Of a DNA stretch of 26,890 bases, positions 1,118-17,137 are shown piece after piece. Source of the stretch: an uncultured bacterium (GTDB lineage Bacteria > Abyssobacteria > SURF-5); assembly GCA_964510165.1 (NCBI GenBank), contig CAZEBC010000033.1:1-26890 (forward strand). The letters are read 5' to 3'. The notes under the pieces are model-generated. The model had not been told where the DNA came from. It searched no databases and worked only from the letters and a program-made list of their open reading frames with translations. The translations under genes and the position numbers were made by a program. Position 1 is the first letter of the stretch. Every line of letters begins with the position of its first letter.

Positions 1118-1738
1118 TCAGTGCTTGCGCACGATGTCCTTGACCTTCATGAGGCGGGTGAGGTTGCCGCGTTCGAGTTCGCTGAGCTTGTCGCCGATGT
1201 GCTTGATGGTCTCCTGCAGGCTGGGGATCAGGATGTGTTCGAGCGCGTTGACGCGGCGGCGGGTGCGTTCGAGTTCGGCGGCGAGCATCTGCACACGCTT
1301 CTCAAGCTGTGCCATCCGGACCATGCGCGGCAGCATGACCGAGAGGATTTTGAGCGAGTGGTCTAGGTCGCCGGTCGAGGAGAGAAACCCGTATCCGAAC
1401 TCGCCCGTGAGCTCGCATTCGAAGCTGGGGACGCGCAGGTTCATGATCGGCTCGATGCGAGTCTTGAACTCGATATGTTTCTGGGAGAATGAGAGCGCCT
1501 CTTCGATTTCGGGCTGGAACGCTTCGAGCCGGGCGGCGAAGAACGAGCGGTAGGCCTTCTCAAGTTCTTCCTCCACCTGCTGGCGGTATCTCTTGGCCTC
1601 GCCCACCAGCGCCATGAACTGCCGCATCAGTTCTTCCTGCTTGTCCTTGAGCAGCTTGTGCCCGCGGCGCGCAAGCTGAAGCCTGCGCCTCAGCCTGAGC
1701 AGTTCCATGCGGTTGGGATTTACGCGAAGAATGGCCAT
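1118..1738 (-). CDS. atpD: V/A-type ATP synthase subunit D
   Basis: PNRMELLRLRRRL..ARRGHKLLKDK and TRRRVNALE motifs; last gene of the operon. Confidence 0.97.
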   Translation of the reverse strand: MAILRVNPNRMELLRLRRRLQLARRGHKLLKDKQEELMRQFMALVGEAKRYRQQVEEELEKAYRSFFAARLEAFQPEIEEALSFSQKHIEFKTRIEPIMNLRVPSFECELTGEFGYGFLSSTGDLDHSLKILSVMLPRMVRMAQLEKRVQMLAAELERTRRRVNALEHILIPSLQETIKHIGDKLSELERGNLTRLMKVKDIVRKH

Positions 1739-3154
1739 TTACGCCGCCTGATCCGCTTCCTCGGTTTTTTCTCTGATCTTCGATTCCTTCGGGTAGTACT
1801 TGTCTATGTATTCCTGCCGGATGCGTTTGAGTTCGCCCTTCGGCAGGAGCGTCAGAAGTTGCCAGCCGAGCTCGATCGTTTGCTCGATGGTCCGGTTCTC
1901 GTCGGAACCCTGTCTGACGAACTTGTCCTCGAACACGTCGGCGAACTTGAAGAACGCCTTGTCCTCCGGGCTGAGCGCGGCCTCGCCGAGGATGACCGCG
2001 AGTTCCTGCACTTCCTTGCCGCGGGCGTACGCGGCGAAGAGCTGGTTCGAGACGTCGGCGTGGTCCTCGCGCGTCTTGCCGCGGCCGATGCCTTTGTCGC
2101 GCAGGCGCGAGAGCGACGGCAGCACGTTGATGGGAGGATAGATGCCCTTGCGGTGGAGCGGGCGGTCGAGGATGATCTGGCCCTCGGTGATGTATCCGGT
2201 CAGGTCGGGGATGGGGTGCGTTTTGTCGTCTTCCGGCATCGAAATGACCGGTATCTGCGTGATGGAGCCGGTGCTCGTCTTGAGCCGGCCCGCTCGCTCA
2301 TATACTGTGGAAAGGTCGGTGTACAGATAGCCCGGATAGCCGCGCCGGCCCGGAACCTCCTTGCGTGCGGCGGAAATCTCGCGGAGCGCCTCGCAGTAAT
2401 TTGTCATGTCGGTGAGTATCACGAGCACGTGCATGTTCAGGTCGAACGCAAGGTATTCGGCCGCGGTGAGCGCCATTCGCGGAGTGGCGATGCGCTCGAT
2501 GGCCGGGTCGTCGGCAAGGTTTACGAACATCACCGCCCGGTCTATCGCGCCGGTACGCTTGAAGTCGGAGATGAAGTAATCGGCCTCCTCGAACGTGATG
2601 CCCATCGCTCCGAAGACGACCGCGAACTGCTCGCTCGTGCCGCGCACCGTGGCTTGGCGCGCGATCTGCGCGGCGAGCGCCGGATGCGGCAGGCCGAACC
2701 CGGAGAAGATCGGCAGCTTCTGTCCGCGCACAAGCGTGTTGAGGCCGTCGATCGCCGAGATGCCGGTCTGGATGAACTCGGACGGATACGCCCGCGCGTA
2801 TGGATTTATCGGGTTGCCATTGATGTTGAGTCGCTTCTCGGGGATAATGGATGGGCCGTCATCAATCGGCCTTCCCATGCCGTCGAACACGCGGCCAAGC
2901 AGGTCGCGCGAAACGCCCAGCTCGAGGCCGCGTCCGAGGAAGCGCACCTTGCAATCCACCACGTTGACTCCGGTCGCTCCTTCAAAGAGCTGAACGAGGG
3001 CCGTGTCGCCCGACACCTCCAGCGTCTTGCCTCGGCGAATCTCGCCGGTCGGCAATTCGAGCTCCACCAGTTCATCGTATTTGACGCCGGAGGTCTCGCC
3101 CACCAGAACCAGCGGCCCCACTATTTCGCGGATCGTTCGATATTCTTTGACCAT
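1739..3154 (-). CDS. atpB: V/A-type ATP synthase subunit B
   Basis: [55 protein letters not shown]. Confidence 0.98.
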
Positions 3155-3156
3155 GC

Positions 3157-4935
3157 TCAGCCCTCTTCCTGGGATTTGACTTTCAGGGACTTGATTGCGT
3201 CAACGGCGCGAGTCCGCAGAGCATCCAGTTTGTCGAGTTCCTGCTCGGTCGTGTAACGCATGCGCGCGATCTCTTCGCGCACCGGCAGCCTGGAGATTTC
3301 CTCTATCGGGGTCGCCAGTTGCAGCGCGTCCATCGCCGCATGATGGAACTGGAGAATGATCTTGAGCATCTTGTATTGTTTCGAGAACGAGGCGTAACTG
3401 TCGATCTCGTGAAATGCGTTCTGATGCAGAAAATCCTCGCGTATCGAGCGCGCCGTCTCCAGGATGAGCCGGTCGCTCGGGGAAAGCGCGTCGAGCCCGA
3501 CCAGTCTCGCGATCTCCTTCAGTTCGGACTCTTTCTGCAATATCTCCATCGTCTCGCGCCTGAGGTTGGTCCAATCGGCGGCGATCTCTTTCTCGAAGAA
3601 CTCGCGCAGGTGCTCGTGGTAAAGCGAGTAGCTCGTGAGCCAGTTGATGGCGGGGAAATGGCGTTCGTAGGCCAGCTTGTCCTCCAGGCTCCAGAACACC
3701 TTCACCACCTTGAGCGTAGCCTGCACGACGGGGTCGGAGAGGTCGCCTCCGGGCGGAGAGACGGCTCCGATGGCGCTGATGGCCCCCAGCCTGTCGTCCG
3801 ACCCCAGGCAGATGACCCTGCCCGCCCGTTCGTAATACTCGGCGATGCGCGTGGGCAGATACGCCGGATAGCCCTCCTCGCCGGGCATTTCCTCCAGGCG
3901 GCCCGACATCTCGCGAAGGGCCTCGGCCCATCTGGAGGTGGAATCGGCCATGATGGCGACGCTGTAACCCATGTCGCGGAAGTACTCAGCCATCGTGATG
4001 CCGGTGTAAATGGAGGCCTCGCGCGCGGCCACCGGCATGTTCGAGGTGTTCGCGACGAGCACCGTCCGTTTCATGAGCGGCTCGCCCGAGCGCGGGTCTT
4101 TCAATTCGGGGAATTCAAGCAGCACGTCGGTCATCTCATTCCCGCGCTCGCCGCATCCGACAAAGATAATGATCTCCGCGTCGGCCCATTTGGCGAGCTG
4201 GTGCTGGACGACCGTCTTGCCCGCACCGAACGGCCCCGGGACGCATGCGGTGCCGCCCTTGCCGATCGGAAACAGTGCGTCTATGACTCGTTGGCCGGTT
4301 ATGAGCGGCGTGATGGGCATGACCTTTTCCTTGTAAGGCCTCGCCCGGCGCACCGGCCATTCCTGCATCATCGTGAGCTTGTGTGTTTGGCCGTCGTGGC
4401 GCAGTTCCGCCACCACATCAGTAACGGTGAACTCTCCGGCTTCGATTCGCGCGACCTCTCCTCTCACTCCGAGCGGAACCAGGATGCGGTGCTCGACGAG
4501 CGTAGTCTCCTGAACGGTCCCGATGATGTCGCCCGCGACGACGGTGTCGCCCACCTTGACGCTCGGCCGGAAGCTCCATTTCTTCTGGCGATTGAGCCCG
4601 GGAGCGTATAGTCCGCGCGTGATCTGATTGCCCGACATCTCCATTATCTGGTCGAGCGGACGCTGGACGCCGTCGTAAATGGACTCGATCATGCCGGGGC
4701 CGAGTTCGACGCTGAGAGGGCGGCCCGTGCTGACGACCGGCTCGCCTGGCCCGAGGCCCTGCGTATCCTCGTACACCTGAATCGAGGCGCGGTCTCCGCG
4801 CAGCTCGATGATCTCGCCGACCAGGTTCTTCTCGCTGACGCGGACCACATCAAACATCTTCGCGGTCTGCATGCCTTCAGCGACCACGAGCGGCCCCGAG
4901 ACCTTTATTATCCTTCCCTTGGCTTGCTGGTTCAT
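3157..4935 (-). CDS. atpA: V/A-type ATP synthase catalytic subunit A
   Basis: Walker [44 protein letters not shown]. Confidence 0.98.
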
Positions 4936-4975
4936 TCGCCTGTCTCCGGTTACTGTCTTCGCATTCGCGCTCGCA

Positions 4976-5284
4976 TCATATGAACTCCGCGCCCATCGCC
5001 CTCCGGACGGAATTTCGGATGATCTGGGCGGCGACTCCTCTGCCGCCCTTGAGCGACGGGATGATCGCGAACGTCGGCCTGGGCGCCTCGAAGAACTTAT
5101 CGATCCTGTCCTTCGCCTCGTCGTAAACGTCCTCGGTCACAAAGATCACGGAGAAGTCTCCCTGCGAGACCTCCTGAACGAGCCTCGGAACGGACTCGTG
5201 CTCGTCCGAGAAGAAGACATCCGCCCCTAGCGACTTAAACGGCCAGACGGTGTCGCGGTCGCCTATGAATGCGATATCAGACAT
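4976..5284 (-). CDS. atpF: V/A-type ATP synthase subunit F
   Basis: [22 protein letters not shown] and VRRAMG motifs; 102 aa, between C and A. Confidence 0.93.
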
Positions 5285-6275
5285 ACAGGTACCTCAGACG
5301 CTCCTCGATCTGCGGTCGGGACCACCCGACAAGCTTGCCCTTGACGACGGTCCGGATCAGTTTCGCCTCTGCTTCCTTGCGAAAAAGGTAGTGGATGAGC
5401 GGGGCGATGCTGAACAGGTCCATTCTCATTTCCCGGAACTTGTGAAGCAACGCGTTGTCAAAGGCGAGTTCGAGTCGCCAAAACGATTTGTCTTCGGGCC
5501 AGGACCTGAACCCTTGCGAAGCGATGTGTCGCTCAACCTTTGTCCCATTCAACTGTTCGAGAAACAGGCCAAACTCTTCATCCATGTGACGCGCGAAGAA
5601 ATTGAACGGATACGTTCCGCCGGGGATGTAGCATTTCGGGAAATCTTCGGGCGTCCCGAACTCCCTGACCCTCACGAACGCCTTGATGTTCTCCATATTG
5701 ATTGATTCCCGGAACAATTCCGTGACGATGTTGTTCCGGCACTTGAGTGCGTTGCTCATGAGGAATTGCCACTTCAAGCGGTCGCACGTGTGGCTTATCG
5801 TGGAGAGCTCTCCTGTCTTCTCATATTCTTGCAGCGCCTCGAGCGCGGTTTCGCGAATATGTTCGGGCATCCAGCGATACTCGTTTTCGCGCACCGCGAC
5901 GCTCAGGTCGCCCACGCTGTAGCCGCCAAGGTCCACAAGGGAATCCGCATGGGGGACCCCGGTTATCCGCCACTTTAACATGGCCTTTAGGTTATGGAAA
6001 TCGTAGCGGACTCGGAACAGGCCGATCAATTCCTTATCCGGACATATTCTTTCAAGCAAGTCGTGGGTGTTGGCCAACTCCCTGAGCAGACCCTTGTCGA
6101 TCTGGGCGGGACCTTCCACACCCGCGAAACTCTCGGCATACGCGGTCTCGCCGAGGAGTCGCAGAATCTCCTGCGGGCTGACGGCGAGCATGCGCGAGGC
6201 GAACGCGCGGTCGAGCAGTTTGGTGCTGAGCGCGTTTATTCTGGCTACCGCATATGTATACCGATAGTCATTCAT
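5277..6275 (-). CDS. atpC: V/A-type ATP synthase subunit C (Vo d-like)
   Basis: Y.YAVARI.AL..KLL, YDFHNLK.MLK, IEERLR; 332 aa; operon position. Confidence 0.93.
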   Translation of the reverse strand: MNDYRYTYAVARINALSTKLLDRAFASRMLAVSPQEILRLLGETAYAESFAGVEGPAQIDKGLLRELANTHDLLERICPDKELIGLFRVRYDFHNLKAMLKWRITGVPHADSLVDLGGYSVGDLSVAVRENEYRWMPEHIRETALEALQEYEKTGELSTISHTCDRLKWQFLMSNALKCRNNIVTELFRESINMENIKAFVRVREFGTPEDFPKCYIPGGTYPFNFFARHMDEEFGLFLEQLNGTKVERHIASQGFRSWPEDKSFWRLELAFDNALLHKFREMRMDLFSIAPLIHYLFRKEAEAKLIRTVVKGKLVGWSRPQIEERLRYLYV

Positions 6276-6870
6276 GGGTCTTCTGACCGAACAGCATCCT
6301 GGCTATTTCGGGCTCGAGATGGTCGCGGCGCCAGGCGATGAGGCTCTTGAGCGTGAGGTTCGTTTCCTTGTTGCCCTCTCTCAGGATGACCCCCGCCGAG
6401 AAGTTGCCGGCCTCCCCGCTCAGACGAAGATGCCCCTTGGGGCCAAGCTGCTTGTTCAAATTCTCCAGAAATTCTTGCGAAAAGAAATCCTTGTGTCGGG
6501 CGGAAGGAATGATTTCTTCTCTGCCGGATTCGACGGCGCCAAGCATAAGCCGTGTCACGAACTCCAGATACTGCTCCTTAGGCAGGTTCACAATCTTTTC
6601 TTCCGCTCGCGCAAAGGCCTCATCTATGATTCTCTTTTTCTCGGCCAGGAGTTCCTTGCGCTGGTCGAGACCGGCGAGCGTTCTTATGCGGCTTGCGCGT
6701 TCGAGCGCCCGCTCCTTCGCCTGCTGCATGAGGCGCTGGCGAAGGTCTTCGGCCTGTTTGCGGGCTTTGTCGCGAATGGCGTCGGCCTCAGCCTTGGCCA
6801 GGGAGAGGAGCGAATCTGCCTCGGCATGGGCGTCGTCATCGATCTTCTTGATAATGTCTTCGAGCGGCAT
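6268..6870 (-). CDS. atpE: V/A-type ATP synthase subunit E
   Basis: N-terminal coiled coil (LEDIIKKI..DA..EA), C-terminal GVIL..G..E.N.T...EIARMLF. Confidence 0.92.
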   Translation of the reverse strand: MPLEDIIKKIDDDAHAEADSLLSLAKAEADAIRDKARKQAEDLRQRLMQQAKERALERASRIRTLAGLDQRKELLAEKKRIIDEAFARAEEKIVNLPKEQYLEFVTRLMLGAVESGREEIIPSARHKDFFSQEFLENLNKQLGPKGHLRLSGEAGNFSAGVILREGNKETNLTLKSLIAWRRDHLEPEIARMLFGQKTHE

Positions 6871-6920
6871 TTCTACCGAGCTTTCTTCTTAGCCATATCC
6901 GGCCTATGGTTGCTGCCCCT

Positions 6921-7391
6921 TCAGCCCTGCATGCCCGCTTGAACCCTGGTGAGCAGGATCAGGGTCGAAACCAGGGACAGGATGGCGTAGGTCTCAACGA
7001 CGGCGGCGAACACGAGCGCCGAGGCCAAGGTCTCAGGCTGCTTCGCAAGCTGGCTCGTTCCCGCCACACAGACTCTGCCCTGATAGATCGCCGAGAGGAA
7101 CCCCACGATCCCTATCGGAGCGCACGAGAACACTATCTGCCAACCTTGTTCGACCGTCGGCTGCCTGTCGCCCAGCACGACGGTGAGCACAAACATCAGC
7201 GCCACAAACCCGTAGAATCCCTGCGTCCCGGGGAGCGCCTGCAGTATGAGCATGCTGACGAACCTCTGAGGCTCCTCGCTTACCACGCCGGAGGCCGCCT
7301 GCCCGGTTATGCCCGTCCCGATTGCCGAGCCGATCGCGGCCAAAAGGAACGCGAAGCCCCCGCCCAGTATCGCGATAGTTAATCCTTCCAT
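6921..7391 (-). CDS. atpK: V/A-type ATP synthase rotor subunit K (four-helix c subunit, NtpK-like, Na+ motif)
   Basis: GSAIG, LQALPGTQGFYG, SAIYQG and VETYA, as in E. hirae NtpK. Confidence 0.96.
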   Translation of the reverse strand: MEGLTIAILGGGFAFLLAAIGSAIGTGITGQAASGVVSEEPQRFVSMLILQALPGTQGFYGFVALMFVLTVVLGDRQPTVEQGWQIVFSCAPIGIVGFLSAIYQGRVCVAGTSQLAKQPETLASALVFAAVVETYAILSLVSTLILLTRVQAGMQG

Positions 7392-7406
7392 CCCTTGCGC
7401 CTCCTT

Positions 7407-9422
7407 CTAAAGGTTGGATTCCGACATTGCCTGATCCACATCCGACCGAATTATGGTGTACTGTCTCTCCTCCGTGAACGGTCTGAACGGCTCGCCTCCG
7501 CCAATGAAGAATTTGCGGAAAAACTCCAGGTATTGAAGCCTGAGGGTATGGACAAAAGCGCCAAGACAGCTAATGGCCAGATTGAACCCGTGACCGAACA
7601 CAAGCACGGGTATCGCGAGCACATAGCCTATTCCATACGGCACACTTGTCAGCAGCCCGGCCGTCACGTTCACCATCATCCCCAGAAACGCGGTCGTCAA
7701 CCCGAGCGCCATGAGGCGCGAGTACGAGAGCACGTCACCGAAGAACCCCAGTCCGTCATAGAACGCGAGAAACGAACCCCGCAGCGGCCAAAGAAACACC
7801 TTTCGCGCTCCGCGGCCGCGACCTATCGCGAGCGGAACGGCTATTGCCAAGGCGGCATACCCCGCCGCTTTTCCAACGGGTTCGGGCACTTGGCCGCCGA
7901 AGAGATTCTTGTAGAAGAGCGGAGCAATCAGAATGAGCAGGATCATCCACAGTCCCTGGTCAACGACCGCAGCCGCGATGTCGCCGTCGCGCAAGTCACG
8001 CGCCATCTTCACGCCAAGACCAAACAAGACCTGCATCAATCCAAGGATGAATGCGACGTACAGGAACAACACCACGTCCGCGGTCGGATTGAACAGCATG
8101 ATTTTCTGAAGAGGCTCGGGGAGCTTTCCGACATCAATCCCAAATATGCCGCCTGTCAGCAGCCCCACAACCGCGCTCGACGCGCCGCCCCATGCCAATA
8201 TCTGCACTATCTTGCGCACTCCTCCGCGGAGTTTCAGTTTCCTCAGAGCCGCCAGGCAGGCCAGCGAGAGCACCATGCCATAGCCGGCATCGCCCAGACA
8301 TACCCCGAAGAAAAGCACAAAGAAGGGAAACAGGAGCGGTGTCGGATCAAACTCGGTGTACTGTGGCTGCCCGTAAAGCTCGGTGATGAGCGAAAAGGGC
8401 CTGACGGGAGCGGCATTCTCGATGAATATGGGAACCTTGTCCCCAGGTGCCGGGTCAGAGCACCGGATTTCGGCCACATGGGTCACTTGCCGGACCCGGA
8501 GCTTCATCCGCTCTTCTTGCTTTGCGAGAACCCAGCCCGTCACCAGAAAGGCGCGGGATGTGAACAGGAAGTTGCTCTGTGCCTGCAGTGACTTCAGTTC
8601 CTCGCTGCATTCATCGTGCAGGAGAAGCAGTTTCTCGCGCGCGGGCACAAGCTCGTGTGCGACGCGGCGTCGAAGCTCCTCATTGCGCTGCCGCAGCTCG
8701 CGTATCTGTTCTCGCAGCCGGTCAAGCGCTTCCGACGGCGTGCCCGTCAGCCCGATAAATCTGACGGGGCGCCAGCCGTATTTTCTTAATATCGGACTTA
8801 CAGTATCTTCCACCGATCTCGAGTAGATGAGCACCATCGAGACCGCATTCTGCGAATGCCCGACGGTCTCGAAGTGATGGAGCGGCGTCGCCTCGGCAAT
8901 CTCGCTGAATATCGGGTCGCAGGCGCGCGCATCGCAAATCCCCATTGAGACAATCGTTGTCTTGGTGTCCCGGATATTTTCGAGCGGAAGCCTCAGCCTG
9001 AGCCAAAGAGCGACATCCTCGGCCAAGGCCTCCTTCTTCTCAATCTGGCTCTCGTTTTCCGCGAGTTCCTTCTCGATGGAATTACATTCCTCATAAAGCC
9101 TGTCGGAGTCAAAACCTGCAAGACATTGCCGGAGTTCCTGCATGGTGAACACGGGCTTGGTCTTCAGCAGACTTTCGACAAAAGAGGCTTTTTGGATGAA
9201 CCGCTCGATGAACAGCAGGGAATATACCACACGCGCAAGCTTGTCCTTCACCTGGAGAAGAGAGCTTTCGAGAAAGGCGGGATATTCCCCTTCGGTGTCG
9301 GGCAGGAATTCCCTGACATCGGATATGTGGACAGCGCCGAGCGAGCGGAGCGTCGCCAGAATCTCCTCCCGACACTCGGCATGAGCGATGAGCTCGAGTT
9401 TTCTTACCTTGCTTACGGCCAT
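7407..9422 (-). CDS. atpI: V/A-type ATP synthase subunit I (a)
   Basis: P.Y.EFDPT, GDAGYG, SYSRLMALGL (essential Arg), LRLQYLEFF.KF. Confidence 0.96.
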   Translation of the reverse strand: MAVSKVRKLELIAHAECREEILATLRSLGAVHISDVREFLPDTEGEYPAFLESSLLQVKDKLARVVYSLLFIERFIQKASFVESLLKTKPVFTMQELRQCLAGFDSDRLYEECNSIEKELAENESQIEKKEALAEDVALWLRLRLPLENIRDTKTTIVSMGICDARACDPIFSEIAEATPLHHFETVGHSQNAVSMVLIYSRSVEDTVSPILRKYGWRPVRFIGLTGTPSEALDRLREQIRELRQRNEELRRRVAHELVPAREKLLLLHDECSEELKSLQAQSNFLFTSRAFLVTGWVLAKQEERMKLRVRQVTHVAEIRCSDPAPGDKVPIFIENAAPVRPFSLITELYGQPQYTEFDPTPLLFPFFVLFFGVCLGDAGYGMVLSLACLAALRKLKLRGGVRKIVQILAWGGASSAVVGLLTGGIFGIDVGKLPEPLQKIMLFNPTADVVLFLYVAFILGLMQVLFGLGVKMARDLRDGDIAAAVVDQGLWMILLILIAPLFYKNLFGGQVPEPVGKAAGYAALAIAVPLAIGRGRGARKVFLWPLRGSFLAFYDGLGFFGDVLSYSRLMALGLTTAFLGMMVNVTAGLLTSVPYGIGYVLAIPVLVFGHGFNLAISCLGAFVHTLRLQYLEFFRKFFIGGGEPFRPFTEERQYTIIRSDVDQAMSESNL

Positions 9423-9733
9423 CAGGAATTGCCGGCTATTGTACTGATAATCCGATCGACCGCACTCTGCATGGTCATTCGACCCGATTCCCGGAGGGCC
9501 TCAAGCGCCTTCTGGTTTTCTCTTCTTGATTCCTCGGCGCTCCTTCGAGCATTTGATTCGGCTTCGGCGATAAGCTGCTGTTCGGCCCGCCGACACTCCT
9601 CCCTCACGCCGTCAACGAGCTTCCGCCCTTCCTCGCGCGCCAGCCGGATGATTTCCTCGGAGTCACGCTTGGCCTTGGCGATGAGCCGTTCGCCCTCGTC
9701 TTCCACACGTCTTATCTCGTTGAGAAGTTCCAT
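9422..9733 (-). CDS. V/A-type ATP synthase peripheral stalk subunit G/H
   Basis: 103-aa charged coiled coil (EIRRVE.E.E.LI..AK..SEEII..AREE); first gene of the operon, overlaps atpI start by 1 bp. Confidence 0.85.
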   Translation of the reverse strand: MELLNEIRRVEDEGERLIAKAKRDSEEIIRLAREEGRKLVDGVREECRRAEQQLIAEAESNARRSAEESRRENQKALEALRESGRMTMQSAVDRIISTIAGNS

Positions 9734-9788
9734 GGGTTCAGCAGGTGTACACTGGTTGCGGTCGAAAATAAGGCCATTATTTGGCAGA

Positions 9789-9818
9789 ATACTAGCACAG
9801 ATTCGGAATGGATGTCAA
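9789..9818 (-). promoter_or_regulatory. Putative sigma70 promoter of the ATPase operon
   Basis: Minus strand TTGACA-N18-TAGTAT with TG extension, ~55 bp upstream of the first gene. Confidence 0.6.
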
Positions 9819-9825
9819 GGAGAAC

Positions 9826-9872
9826 ATACTATTTGTTGTGTTGCCGAGAGACCGGGACACTATATAATTTGT
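9826..9872. promoter_or_regulatory. Tandem NrdR-box-like sites
   Basis: ATACTATTTGTTGTGT (9826-9841, 13/16) and ACACTATATAATTTGT (9857-9872, 14/16) versus consensus acaCwAtATaTwGtgt; starts are 31 bp apart. Confidence 0.55.
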
Positions 9873-9891
9873 TTCGCCGACATCCATTTTG

Positions 9892-10242
9892 CTAGCTTTT
9901 CACCACGCCCGTATGAGGATCATACTTCCCCCGAAGCGCGTCCGCCCCTGTGCGGTCCCACAGCGGTATCCCCACATGGTAGGCCGCCCGGCTAATGAGG
10001 TGCGCGCCGACCGGCACCGTAATCACCAGAAAAGCAATGGTCGCAAGCGACAGCATCGTTATTCGGAGTTGATTGAAGTGGACGGCGAGCGAGAGAAGAC
10101 AAAAGCCTGCCCCGAGCGTGGACGCCTTCGAGGAGGCCGACACCCTCATGTAAAGGTCAGGGAGACGCAGAATCCCCAAACCGCTCACAAACATGAAAAA
10201 TGCCCCAATGAGCATGAATATCTGGCTTGCCGCCTCCCGCAT
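9892..10242 (-). CDS. mrpG: Mrp Na+/H+ antiporter subunit G
   Basis: G.LRLPDLY.R..ASSKASTLG, T.PVGAHLISRAAY. Confidence 0.95.
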   Translation of the reverse strand: MREAASQIFMLIGAFFMFVSGLGILRLPDLYMRVSASSKASTLGAGFCLLSLAVHFNQLRITMLSLATIAFLVITVPVGAHLISRAAYHVGIPLWDRTGADALRGKYDPHTGVVKS

Positions 10243-10245
10243 CGG

Positions 10246-10512
10246 TCAACCCCCTCTCCGGACGTGGTATGCGAACGCCACGGTCGTCAGAAACGCGATG
10301 AGCGCGGCAACAGCCGCGACATGCAGAAACAACCTCTCATTCGTCGCGACCGCATAAGCGGTCGTGAAGCCAATCCCGATTATTCCAAGCAAATCAAGTG
10401 CGATCACCCGATCCGGCAGGCTTGGGCCCAGGATGAGTCGGATAAAGGCGAGTACGAACGCCACGCTCAACACCGATAACGCCATGATGAAAACCGGATG
10501 CAACGGGTTCAT
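10246..10512 (-). CDS. mrpF: Mrp Na+/H+ antiporter subunit F
   Basis: RLILGPSLPDRVIALD, FLTTVAFA. Confidence 0.95.
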   Translation of the reverse strand: MNPLHPVFIMALSVLSVAFVLAFIRLILGPSLPDRVIALDLLGIIGIGFTTAYAVATNERLFLHVAAVAALIAFLTTVAFAYHVRRGG

Positions 10513-16093: not shown

Positions 16094-17137
16094 TCATGAC
16101 AGGCGCTCGTCGTATTCGATCCGCTCAATTTCCTCCCGGAACTCGTCGAGGAGGCGTTCCTTGTCAAGGTCGGGAAGAAAGCTGCCGCGCACGGCGTTCA
16201 GCGCCAGCGTCTTTATCTCCTCCCAGTCCAGCCCCAGCTCTTCCCGACACACGTTGTATTCCTGCGTGAGTGAAGTGTTGAACATGCCAGGATCGTCGCT
16301 GTTGACTGTCACCAGCAAACCACGCCTCAGGAAAACGGACAGCGGATGCTCGGAGTACGAGCGGATCGCGCCTGTCTTCAAGTTGCTCGTCGGACACATC
16401 TCGACCGCTATTCCGGCAATCCGCAAGTGCTCGAGAAGTTCATCGTCTCCGCGCGCCCCAAGTCCATGGCCGATCCGTTCCGCCCGGAGCGATTTGACGG
16501 CTCCCCACACGCTCGCGGGCCCGCCGACCTCGCCCGCATGCGCCACCGCGTGCAGCCCCTGCTTCCTCGCCCATGCGAACTGCTCGACAAACAACTCCGG
16601 TGAATAGTGAATCTCGTCGCCGCCCAGCCCGAGCGCGATGACGCCCGAGTCCTGATGCCGCGCCGCGTCTTTTGCTGTCTGCCATGCGTGCTCCTGGCCA
16701 AACTGCCGGCCAATATCGAGAATGAAGCGAACCTCCATCTTTCCCTCACGGCACGCTGCATTGACGCCGGCCTCAAGCCCCGCCATTATCTCGTCCATCG
16801 AAAGCCCGTTGAGCCGGTGCACCGTCGGCGCCATAGTGATCTCGGCATAGCGCACGTTCTGCGAACGCAGGCTCTGCACAACATCAATGCATGCAGTCTC
16901 GAAATCCTCAGCGTCCTGAAGACAACCGCATCTCTGCCGGTAGTCGTCAAGAAAATTGATGAGGTGGCCATATCCTCCCGAATGACGCCGGGGCGGCCGG
17001 CCGAGTTTAACCGAGTTCTTCTCGGCCAACTGCTCCATCGTCCTCGGCGAAATCGAGCCCTCCAAATGAACGTGAAGCTCAGCCTTCGGCATCCGCTCGA
17101 TGGCCCGCTCGAAATTATCTTGCCGCTCTCCGCTCAT
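16094..17137 (-). CDS. add: Adenosine/adenine deaminase
   Basis: PKAELHVHLEGS, AHAGE, ERIGHG, CPTSN, NSDDP. Confidence 0.93.
   Translation of the reverse strand: MSGERQDNFERAIERMPKAELHVHLEGSISPRTMEQLAEKNSVKLGRPPRRHSGGYGHLINFLDDYRQRCGCLQDAEDFETACIDVVQSLRSQNVRYAEITMAPTVHRLNGLSMDEIMAGLEAGVNAACREGKMEVRFILDIGRQFGQEHAWQTAKDAARHQDSGVIALGLGGDEIHYSPELFVEQFAWARKQGLHAVAHAGEVGGPASVWGAVKSLRAERIGHGLGARGDDELLEHLRIAGIAVEMCPTSNLKTGAIRSYSEHPLSVFLRRGLLVTVNSDDPGMFNTSLTQEYNVCREELGLDWEEIKTLALNAVRGSFLPDLDKERLLDEFREEIERIEYDERLS

What the first reader, a model, noticed from the sequence alone, without database searches (positions are those of the whole stretch)
9826..9872. Tandem NrdR-like boxes upstream of a V/A-type ATPase operon: possible nucleotide-sensing control of ATP synthase
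Seen: two 16-mers, ATACTATTTGTTGTGT and ACACTATATAATTTGT, match acaCwAtATaTwGtgt at 13/16 and 14/16. They start exactly 31 bp apart in an otherwise GC-rich region, and the nearer one lies 7 bp upstream of the ATPase -35 box. Known: NrdR is an ATP/dATP-sensing ATP-cone repressor that binds tandem boxes about three helical turns apart, normally at ribonucleotide reductase genes, and no nrd gene is in this window. Inference: NrdR may regulate this ATPase operon or block read-through from mrp, linking adenylate pools to ion-motive ATPase expression. I do not recall such a regulon member.
Basis: partly seen in the sequence, partly recalled or inferred. Interest (0 to 1): 0.75.

Follow-up and report, generated by a model that had tools for sequence, protein, structure and literature searches.

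The report
NrdR operator on an A/V-ATPase promoter
Two binding boxes for NrdR, the bacterial sensor of DNA-building-block supply, sit just upstream of the promoter of a rotary ATPase operon in an uncultured Abyssobacteria genome, which suggests that this "ribonucleotide-reductase-only" regulator controls more genes in this lineage.

Summary
Boxes at 9826-9841 and 9857-9872 match the NrdR consensus 13/16 and 14/16, with a 15-bp linker, ending 7 bp before the -35 of the minus-strand A/V-ATPase promoter. The genome (Candidatus Abyssobacteria MAG) encodes NrdR and NrdJ, whose promoters carry the same box type. With a matrix built only from relatives' nrdR/nrdJ sites, the boxes rank 5th and 33rd of 4.17 M positions. 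The pair ranks 3rd genome-wide. Of 6 pairs of >=12-bit sites 16-80 bp apart, 5 lie at 31-32 bp.

Boxes occur at the same offsets in 4 of 9 family-level ATPase loci. In the three relatives every box keeps C4, A6, A8 and G13, while spacer and flank have diverged. The same layout (box, 7 nt, -35) is conserved at smc (9/9) and a ParA-like gene (9/9).

Against: the distal box lacks one critical C/G position, 5 of 9 loci have no boxes, the boxes do not overlap the polymerase site, and no binding or RNA data exist.

Verdict: probably a real NrdR operator on a new kind of target. Repression is favoured but unproven. The scan has noted NrdR boxes at other non-RNR sites in other genomes, none at an ATPase.

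The parts
9857..9872 (.). Promoter-distal NrdR-type box (14/16 to consensus; 13.9 bits, rank 33 genome-wide). Only one good half-site: it lacks one of the two critical C4/G13 positions.
9842..9856 (.). 15-bp GC-rich linker between the boxes (73% GC). Three strain differences (9853, 9854, 9856) fall here.
   Evidence: canonical linker length 15-16 bp per PMC13584703 abstract
9826..9841 (.). Promoter-proximal NrdR-type box (13/16; 18.6 bits, rank 5 genome-wide). It has C4, A6, T11 and G13, with 88% AT between C4 and G13.
9819..9825 (-). 7-nt gap between the proximal box and the -35. The same 7-nt gap is found at the family's smc and ParA-CBM promoters.
9813..9818 (-). -35 hexamer TTGACA of the ATPase operon promoter; a -35 at this place is present in all 9 family-level loci.
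9789..9797 (-). Extended -10 (TG, one base, then TAGTAT), 18 nt after the -35.
9422..9733 (-). First gene of the operon, 103 aa, AhaH / subunit H-like (below curated cut-offs).
1118..9422 (-). Rest of the A/V-type ATPase operon: subunits I, K(c), E, C, F, A, B, D.
9892..10242 (-). mnhG, last gene of the upstream Mrp antiporter operon (same strand). No terminator-like site lies between it and the ATPase promoter.

Best explanation
The two boxes form an operator for this organism's own NrdR. NrdR is a zinc-ribbon plus ATP-cone protein which, in the species studied, binds DNA as a tetramer when loaded with dATP plus ATP and not with ATP alone.

The operator sits directly upstream of the -35 of the strong minus-strand promoter of the A/V-type ATPase operon, with box centres near -51 and -82. 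This is where the RNA-polymerase alpha C-terminal domains normally dock. Bound NrdR most likely lowers transcription of this second, accessory rotary ATPase when dATP is plentiful. The ATPase would then join a lineage-specific NrdR gene set that also includes nrdR, nrdJ, smc, a ParA-like ATPase, a MinD-like ATPase and a cell-wall amidase.

Shown: the sites, their rarity, their spacing, their conservation, the presence of NrdR, and the shared promoter layout. Inferred: that NrdR binds here, that binding represses, and the physiological logic.
For: (1) NrdR is present and canonical: TIGR00244 at 211.5 bits against a cut-off of 124.65. It has Asp15 and Arg17, the residues that PMC13584703 section 10 names as contacting C4/G13.
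(2) The genome's nrdR and nrdJ promoters carry the same box type, in 9 of 9 and 10 of 10 family genomes examined.
(3) With a leave-G000-out matrix the boxes rank 5 and 33 of 4.17 M positions and the pair ranks 3rd.
(4) Spacing: of 6 pairs of >=12-bit sites 16-80 bp apart, 5 are at 31-32 bp; of 8 pairs at >=10 bits, 6 are. The matrix holds no spacing information.
(5) The proximal box meets all experimental criteria (criteria).
(6) Conservation: boxes at about -22 and -53 from the -35 in G001, G007 and G003. All 7 of their boxes have C4, A6, A8 and G13. Pairwise identity is 0.88 at critical columns, 0.51 at other box columns, 0.36 in the linker and 0.27 in the flank. A pair as good as the weakest relative pair occurs at only 9 positions in G000; the chance of one within +-3 nt of a fixed offset is about 1e-4.
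(7) The layout 'box, exactly 7 nt, -35' is conserved at smc (9 of 9) and at ParA-CBM (9 of 9).
(8) A variant strain has 5 intergenic changes, none in a box or a promoter hexamer.
(9) Precedent for boxes wholly upstream of -35 and -10 at a real RNR operon: S. pneumoniae nrdHEF (PMC12051234 passages).
(10) Consensus -35 plus extended -10 suits a repressed rather than an activator-dependent promoter (inference).
Against: The distal box lacks one of the two critical C/G positions: the nearest C is two places further out, giving 10 bp between C and G. In E. coli nrdEF a single G13 change in one box abolished binding, and only a one-position shift in one box was tolerated.

Five of 9 family-level loci (G002, G005, G006, G008, L066) have the promoter but no box >=0 bits. 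The relatives' boxes score low on the family matrix (0.5-10.6 bits).

The boxes do not overlap the RNA-polymerase site, which is the usual repressing position. P. aeruginosa NrdR activates topA, so the direction is open.

None of 80 A/V-ATPase loci from other phyla shows a pair. The nrdJ tree could not resolve whether box-bearing genomes form one clade. The strain data are not significant on their own: my estimate is about 0.3 for 5 changes missing 32 of 158 bp by chance.
Confidence: 0.5

Rival explanations
1. NrdR binds here but activates the ATPase promoter, acting like a class I activator from about -51 and -82 on the polymerase-facing side of the helix.
For: The boxes lie wholly upstream of the -35, at a fixed 7-nt distance shared with the smc and ParA-CBM promoters. 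A fixed distance fits a stereospecific contact. P. aeruginosa NrdR activates topA through a box (PMC4409342 passages).
Against: The core promoter is already near consensus (10/12 with TG), which is unlike activator-dependent promoters. topA has a single box, not a pair. All biochemically studied NrdR operators repress.
Confidence: 0.15
2. The site is vestigial or non-functional in this genome. It is either an ancestral operator now decaying (the distal box has lost a critical C/G) or AT-rich UP-element-like DNA that merely resembles NrdR boxes.
For: The distal box fails the C4/G13 criterion. A single such change abolished binding in E. coli nrdEF. Five of 9 loci have lost or never had boxes. 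The proximal box overlaps the region where UP elements lie (established knowledge).
Against: The proximal box is the 5th best site in the genome and the pair the 3rd best. The family's own nrdJ operator also has one full box plus a second element lacking G13. UP elements do not explain conserved C4/G13 or the 31-bp spacing. The variant strain keeps both boxes intact.
Confidence: 0.2
3. NrdR bound here acts mainly as a roadblock to read-through transcription from the upstream mrp operon, insulating the ATPase operon.
For: mrp and the ATPase lie on the same strand, only 158 bp apart, with no terminator-like site. mnhG/mnhF lie directly upstream in 3 of the 4 box-bearing loci.
Against: G001 has boxes without mrp upstream, and G005 has mrp upstream without boxes. 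The boxes keep a fixed offset to the ATPase -35, not to the mnhG stop. The same geometry occurs at smc and ParA-CBM.
Confidence: 0.08
4. The boxes repress a plus-strand promoter (TTGCCG 9841-9846, 16-nt spacer, TATAAT 9863-9868) that would give an RNA antisense to mnhG.
For: The scan finds this match at 10/12, with the -10 inside the distal box and the -35 abutting the proximal box. That is the classical overlapping geometry.
Against: The AT-rich box core produces -10-like hexamers by itself, and the -35 matches only 4/6. No equivalent match exists in G001 or G007, and in G003 the matches lie at unrelated positions, whereas the sense promoter scores 10-11/12 in all four.
Confidence: 0.04

Closest known systems
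NrdR operators of ribonucleotide reductase promoters (E. coli nrdAB/nrdHIEF/nrdDG, S. coelicolor nrdRJ/nrdAB, L. monocytogenes, S. pneumoniae)
   Same: Two 16-bp partially palindromic AT-rich boxes, a 15-bp linker of free sequence, a cognate NrdR in the genome, and the same box type at the genome's own nrdR and nrdJ.
   Different: The target is a rotary ATPase operon, not an RNR. Both boxes lie upstream of the -35 instead of overlapping the polymerase site. One box has only one good half-site.
S. pneumoniae nrdHEF operator
   Same: The -35 and -10 both lie downstream of box 2, so the boxes are wholly upstream of the promoter (PMC12051234 passages).
   Different: There the spacers are 24-26 bp and the target is an RNR; here the spacer is 15 bp and the target is not an RNR.
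P. aeruginosa topA, the one experimentally supported non-RNR NrdR target that I found
   Same: A non-RNR gene with an NrdR box whose mutation changes expression (PMC4409342 passages).
   Different: It has a single box, it is activated, it is DNA-topology related, and it lies in a different phylum.
This family's own smc and ParA-CBM promoters
   Same: An NrdR-type box ending exactly 7 nt before a consensus -35, usually with a partner box 30-31 bp further upstream.
   Different: Those are conserved in 9 of 9 genomes with two full boxes in most. The ATPase operator is found in 4 of 9 loci and is weaker.

Membership tests
NrdR operator (tandem NrdR boxes) | Two 16-bp partially palindromic boxes matching the NrdR consensus | tested here: met
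   13/16 and 14/16. 18.6 and 13.9 bits on a leave-G000-out family matrix, ranks 5 and 33 of 4.17 M positions.
NrdR operator (tandem NrdR boxes) | Linker of 15-16 bp (24-27 bp also tolerated) | tested here: met
   15 bp, 9842-9856. Criterion from the PMC13584703 abstract and PMC12051234 passages. The 31-32-bp start-to-start spacing is enriched genome-wide.
NrdR operator (tandem NrdR boxes) | C4 and G13 present in both boxes, 8 bp between them (9 bp tolerated in one box) | tested here: not met
   The proximal box has both. The distal box lacks one of the two, the nearest C/G lying two positions further out (criterion). It is met by all 7 boxes in G001, G007 and G003. The family's nrdJ second element also fails it.
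NrdR operator (tandem NrdR boxes) | At least 63% AT between C4 and G13; A6/T11 present | tested here: met
   AT is 88% (proximal) and 100% (distal). The proximal box has both A6 and T11; the distal box has one of the two on either strand.
NrdR operator (tandem NrdR boxes) | Cognate NrdR encoded in the genome, and the same box type at its nrd genes | tested here: met
   NrdR passes the TIGR00244 equivalog cut-off. Boxes lie in the nrdR and nrdJ promoters.
NrdR operator (tandem NrdR boxes) | Boxes overlap the RNA-polymerase binding site (usual, not universal) | tested here: not met
   Both boxes lie upstream of the -35. S. pneumoniae nrdHEF is a known exception.
NrdR operator (tandem NrdR boxes) | Nucleotide-dependent binding by NrdR (dATP plus ATP) | not testable with these tools
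   Needs EMSA or microscale thermophoresis.
NrdR regulon as described in print (RNR genes, nrdR, topA) | Target is an RNR or DNA-replication-related gene | tested here: not met
   The operon is an A/V-type ATPase. No paper in the library holds both NrdR and 'V-type ATPase'. None of the 15 listed titles or abstract starts (of 19 papers) for NrdR + regulon + 'ATP synthase' concerned such a link; their full texts were not read.

The most novel reading that the evidence does not exclude
In Candidatus Abyssobacteria, NrdR is not an RNR-specific repressor but a small global regulator. It would tie the dATP/ATP state to DNA-precursor synthesis (nrdJ, nrdR), chromosome segregation (smc, a ParA-like ATPase), division and cell separation (a MinD-like ATPase, a LysM amidase) and, in some genera, a second rotary ATPase. 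Part of this control would run through a distinct operator class placed exactly 7 nt upstream of the -35, whose mode of action (exclusion of the polymerase alpha subunit, or activation) has not been described for NrdR.
Probability: 0.45. Interest if true: 0.8.

Novelty: new variant of a known kind. Interest (0 to 1): 0.62.

Why it matters
NrdR is described in current papers as the RNR-specific repressor (PMC9110341 abstract). In 186 proteobacterial regulons it averages 3.2 genes (PMC5343134 passages). A conserved set of NrdR operators on segregation and division genes and on an ion-motive ATPase would make NrdR a growth-state regulator in a deep-branching uncultured lineage. It would also define a second operator geometry, upstream of the -35 at a fixed 7-nt distance.

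This is directly testable with recombinant protein and short DNA fragments, because NrdR proteins bind heterologous boxes (PMC13584703 abstract). It would also show that genome-wide NrdR-box scans should not be limited to nrd promoters.

Tried and rejected
RNA evidence: no RNA holder listed for window 9300-10400, so starts, read-through and expression could not be examined.

Rfam on the nrdJ locus, to explain its ~400-nt leader: 0 matches at gathering score.

The nrdJ protein tree, meant to place box-bearing genomes: star-like at genus level, 6 of 8 inner branches open. No statement on gain or loss is possible.

The metagenome scan for more relatives gave only one usable family-level locus (L066); the rest were partial or about 29% identical.

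80 A/V-ATPase loci of other phyla showed no tandem pair beyond the Abyssobacteria duplicates, so there is no general NrdR-ATPase link.

The C245 ATP-cone frame is not an RNR. From its printed sequence it looks like a 2-phosphoglycerate-kinase-like protein; this was not scanned.

CoADR orthologues have no boxes in any of the 8 relative loci, so the C161 pair was re-assigned to the divergent amidase gene.

The antisense plus-strand promoter is not conserved.

Earlier notes of this scan: nothing on this place or on NrdR in this genome.

Full report
WHAT IS THERE. The window is contig C33 of a 4.17-Mb, 325-contig bacterial MAG with 57.7% GC. One relative's record title places the family in Candidatus Abyssobacteria.

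All genes near the finding are on the minus strand:
- an Mrp antiporter operon ending with mnhG (9892-10242);
- a 158-bp intergenic region (9734-9891);
- a nine-gene A/V-type ATPase operon: an H-like 103-aa protein, then I, K, E, C, F, A, B, D (1118-9733).

A consensus scan finds the ATPase promoter on the minus strand: TTGACA at 9818..9813, an 18-nt spacer, then TAGTAT at 9794..9789 preceded by TG, 10 of 12 matches. It finds no terminator-like site after mnhG. The nearer box ends 7 bp before the -35. The boxes are AT-rich islands (25% and 19% GC) around a 73% GC linker in a 59% GC window.

IS IT MORE THAN CHANCE? The genome encodes a canonical NrdR on C118, 153 aa, scoring 211.5 bits against the TIGR00244 cut-off of 124.65. 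It has one RNR, a B12-dependent NrdJ on C25. No NrdD or class I small-subunit match was found (genome 97% complete).

Only three sites in the genome reach 14/16 to the consensus. They are the window's distal box, a box in the -35/-10 spacer of a TTGACA, N17, TATAAT promoter 60 bp upstream of nrdR, and a box in the matching promoter of nrdJ.

I built a weight matrix from nrdR box 1, nrdR box 2 and nrdJ box 1 of the relatives only, with no G000 site. These sites were read from stored loci by coordinate. The window's proximal box scores 18.6 bits, rank 5 of 4,166,280 positions. The distal box scores 13.9 bits, rank 33.

The matrix knows nothing about spacing. Yet of the 6 pairs of >=12-bit sites lying 16-80 bp apart in the genome, 4 are 31 bp apart, 1 is 32 and 1 is 29. 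At >=10 bits, 6 of 8 are at 31-32 bp. No control spacing outside 29-33 bp gives a pair summing >=24 bits. The ATPase pair sums to 32.5 bits, third after nrdR (39.5) and a MinD-like gene (33.1).

Among 1,565 GC-matched 158-bp windows, with the window's own site excluded, 7 reach a sum >=24 and 3 reach >=32. I did not map which loci those windows cover.

EXPERIMENTAL CRITERIA. The mutational study PMC13584703 (sections 7 and 10 read) sets these requirements:
- C4 and G13 are critical, with 8 bp between them; 9 bp is tolerated in one box only.
- A6 and T11 are important.
- At least 63% AT between C4 and G13.
- A 15-16-bp linker of free sequence.

The proximal box meets all of them. The distal box has a perfect half-site on one side but lacks the critical C/G on the other. 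This is real evidence against full-strength binding, because a single G13 change abolished binding to E. coli nrdEF. Against that, the family's own nrdJ operator also pairs one full box with a conserved second element that lacks G13. NrdR of this genome has Asp15 and Arg17, the residues the paper names as contacting C4/G13.

CONSERVATION. The class holds only 11 reference genomes. The ATPase operon was found in 7 other family genomes, at 52-61% AtpI identity (G002's gene lies in two contig pieces), plus one metagenome contig (L066). It was not found in G004 or G009.

All 9 loci keep a -35 followed by an extended -10.
- Four loci (G000, G001, G007, G003) have positive-scoring boxes at about -22 and -53 from the -35, always 31 bp apart. 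G003 has a third box a further 31 bp upstream.
- Five loci (G002, G005, G006, G008, L066) have none.

The relatives' boxes score low on the family matrix (0.5-10.6 bits). Even so, all 7 keep C4, A6, A8 and G13 with >=62% AT. Mean pairwise identity among the four genomes is 0.88 at those critical columns (1.00 among the three relatives), 0.51 at other box columns, 0.36 in the linker and 0.27 in the 5' flank.

In all of G000 only 9 positions carry a 31-bp pair as good as the weakest relative pair. The chance of one falling within +-3 nt of a fixed offset is about 1e-4, even on an AT-rich null. Kin are not independent, but the diverged linker and flank show that what is kept is kept selectively.

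A variant strain seen in two runs of one study differs at five intergenic places: 9755, a 1-nt deletion at 9780, and 9853, 9854 and 9856. None lies in a box or a promoter hexamer. On its own this is weak.

THE LINEAGE HAS A WIDER NrdR BOX SET. Following the other tandem pairs of G000 led to conserved operators elsewhere.
- A MinD-like ATPase gene has a box in the -35/-10 spacer and a second box 31 bp downstream, in 8 of 8 orthologous loci (for G000).
- A ParA-like ATPase with a glycogen-binding module has a box ending exactly 7 nt before TTGACT in 9 of 9 genomes. The partner box lies 31 bp upstream in 8; in G002 it lies in the spacer.
- smc (SMC_N plus hinge domains) has a box ending exactly 7 nt before TTGACA in 9 of 9 genomes. 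By the pairs listed, a partner box lies 30-31 bp upstream in 7 of the 9, and a box in the -35/-10 spacer pairs with it in G000, G004, G006 and G009.
- A LysM/Amidase_3 gene has a box at -22 from the -35 and one in the spacer. Pairs >=14 bits occur in 4 of 9 loci; a spacer box is visible by eye in 9 of 9.

Not every G000 site is conserved. The CoADR side of the C161 pair has none in the 8 relative loci, and a strong single box before a KAS-like gene has weak counterparts in 2 of 8.

The contig carrying the F-type ATP synthase gamma-subunit gene has no site >=10 bits. The A/V-type enzyme is therefore a second rotary ATPase, and the only one of the two with boxes.

The ATPase operator of G000 has the same 'box, 7 nt, -35' layout as the family-wide smc and ParA-CBM operators. 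I regard this as the strongest single argument that it is a working site of the same protein.

HOW IT MOST LIKELY WORKS. [quoted passage not shown] With ATP alone it forms oligomers that do not bind.

In this window the box centres fall near -51 and -82, taking the start about 7 nt after the -10. This is an inference; no start is mapped. That is the docking zone of the polymerase alpha C-terminal domains. Because the core promoter is near consensus, I favour repression by occlusion of that zone (confidence 0.5).

Activation is a live rival (0.15). P. aeruginosa NrdR activates topA, and a fixed 7-nt distance fits a stereospecific contact.

Three further rivals:
- A vestigial or non-functional site (0.2), because of the flawed distal box and patchy conservation.
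- A roadblock to mrp read-through (0.08). mrp lies directly upstream in G000, G007, G003 and also in box-less G005, but not in box-bearing G001.
- An NrdR-repressed antisense promoter (0.04), because the plus-strand match is confined to G000.

COMPARISON WITH WHAT IS KNOWN. It works like an NrdR operator and meets most defining features. It fails the strict 'C4 and G13 in both boxes' criterion in this genome, though the relatives meet it, and it does not overlap the polymerase site.

In print, NrdR is called RNR-specific (PMC9110341 abstract and introduction passages). 'All genes described as regulated by NrdR were RNR genes' until topA (PMC4409342 passage). Proteobacterial regulons average 3.2 genes (PMC5343134 passages).

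Two searches bear on whether the link is in print. A search for NrdR with 'V-type ATPase' found 0 papers. A search for NrdR + regulon + 'ATP synthase' found 19 papers. From the 15 listed titles and abstract starts none concerns such a link; I did not read them.

Rodionov and Gelfand 2005 and RegPrecise, which list candidate non-RNR targets, were not readable here. I know them only through citation, so an ATPase entry there cannot be excluded.

The Abyssubacteria genome paper does not contain the words ATPase, ATP synthase, Mrp, antiporter or V-type.

Earlier notes of this scan report NrdR-type boxes at other non-RNR places in other genomes (a gcrA promoter, an origin, phages, an island), none at an ATPase. 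I did not test those.

VERDICT. The site is probably a genuine NrdR operator on a new kind of target, with an atypical geometry that this lineage uses elsewhere. The direction and strength of control in this genome are open.

Noticed in passing
G000 contig C11, about 8951-9075 (L064 about 1950-2075, minus strand); relatives L231-L238: The smc promoter carries an NrdR-type box ending exactly 7 nt before TTGACA in 9 of 9 family genomes. By the pairs listed, a partner box lies 30-31 bp upstream in 7 of the 9, and a box in the spacer pairs with it in 4.
   Followed up: yes
G000 contig C188:490-536 (L062/L170); relatives L171-L178: A ParA-like ATPase with a C-terminal AMPK/CBM48 glycogen-binding module has tandem NrdR-type boxes upstream of its -35, with an exact 7-nt gap, in 9 of 9 genomes (G002 has the partner box in the spacer instead).
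   Followed up: yes
G000 contig C151:9323-9369 (L060/L182); relatives L183-L189: A MinD-like ATPase gene (373 aa, with an extra ~100-aa N-terminal part) has the classical NrdR geometry, a box in the -35/-10 spacer plus a box 31 bp downstream, in 8 of 8 orthologous loci.
   Followed up: yes
G000 contig C161:1813-1859 (L061/L219); relatives L220-L227: A LysM + Amidase_3 (cell-wall amidase) promoter has one box upstream of the -35 and one in the spacer. The spacer box is visible in all 9 loci, and pairs >=14 bits occur in 4 of 9. The divergent DUF4405/CoA-disulfide-reductase side is not conserved.
   Followed up: yes
G000 contig C25:16531-17195 (L046); relatives L047-L055: nrdJ is transcribed from a promoter about 400 nt upstream of its start codon (664 nt in G000, where an N-run and a duplicated ~60-bp stretch lie in the leader). 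A 16-nt element 32 bp after the box is nearly invariant across genera but scores poorly as an NrdR box. There is no Rfam match at gathering score.
   Followed up: partly
G000 contig C2:31925-31971 (L063): Tandem boxes 31 bp apart (26.7 bits) lie just downstream of a TTGACA, N17, TATGGT promoter, before a 750-aa TPR protein. Relatives were not checked.
   Followed up: no
G000 contig C122:151-166 (L065): A single strong box (20.6 bits, 3rd best in the genome) lies downstream of a promoter before a beta-ketoacyl-synthase-like gene. Only weak counterparts exist, in 2 of 8 relatives.
   Followed up: partly
G000 contig C245, about 3575-4850 (minus strand): A 425-aa protein with two N-terminal ATP-cone domains followed by a P-loop kinase-like part (it looks like a 2-phosphoglycerate kinase). 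It is a second ATP-cone protein besides NrdR, and not an RNR (the kinase part was judged by eye and not scanned).
   Followed up: partly
window 9853-9856: A variant strain in two runs of one study carries three clustered substitutions (9853, 9854, 9856) in the linker right next to the distal box, plus 9755 G>A and a 1-nt deletion at 9780 near the inferred transcription start.
   Followed up: partly
L011 (G003) 1013-1028: The G003 ATPase promoter has a third NrdR-type box (all six conserved positions present) a further 31 bp upstream, giving three phased boxes.
   Followed up: partly
window 16094-17137 (minus strand): An adenosine deaminase gene lies two genes upstream of the mrp operon; a 157-aa ORF with no Pfam match lies between them. 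No NrdR-type site >=8 bits is nearby.
   Followed up: no
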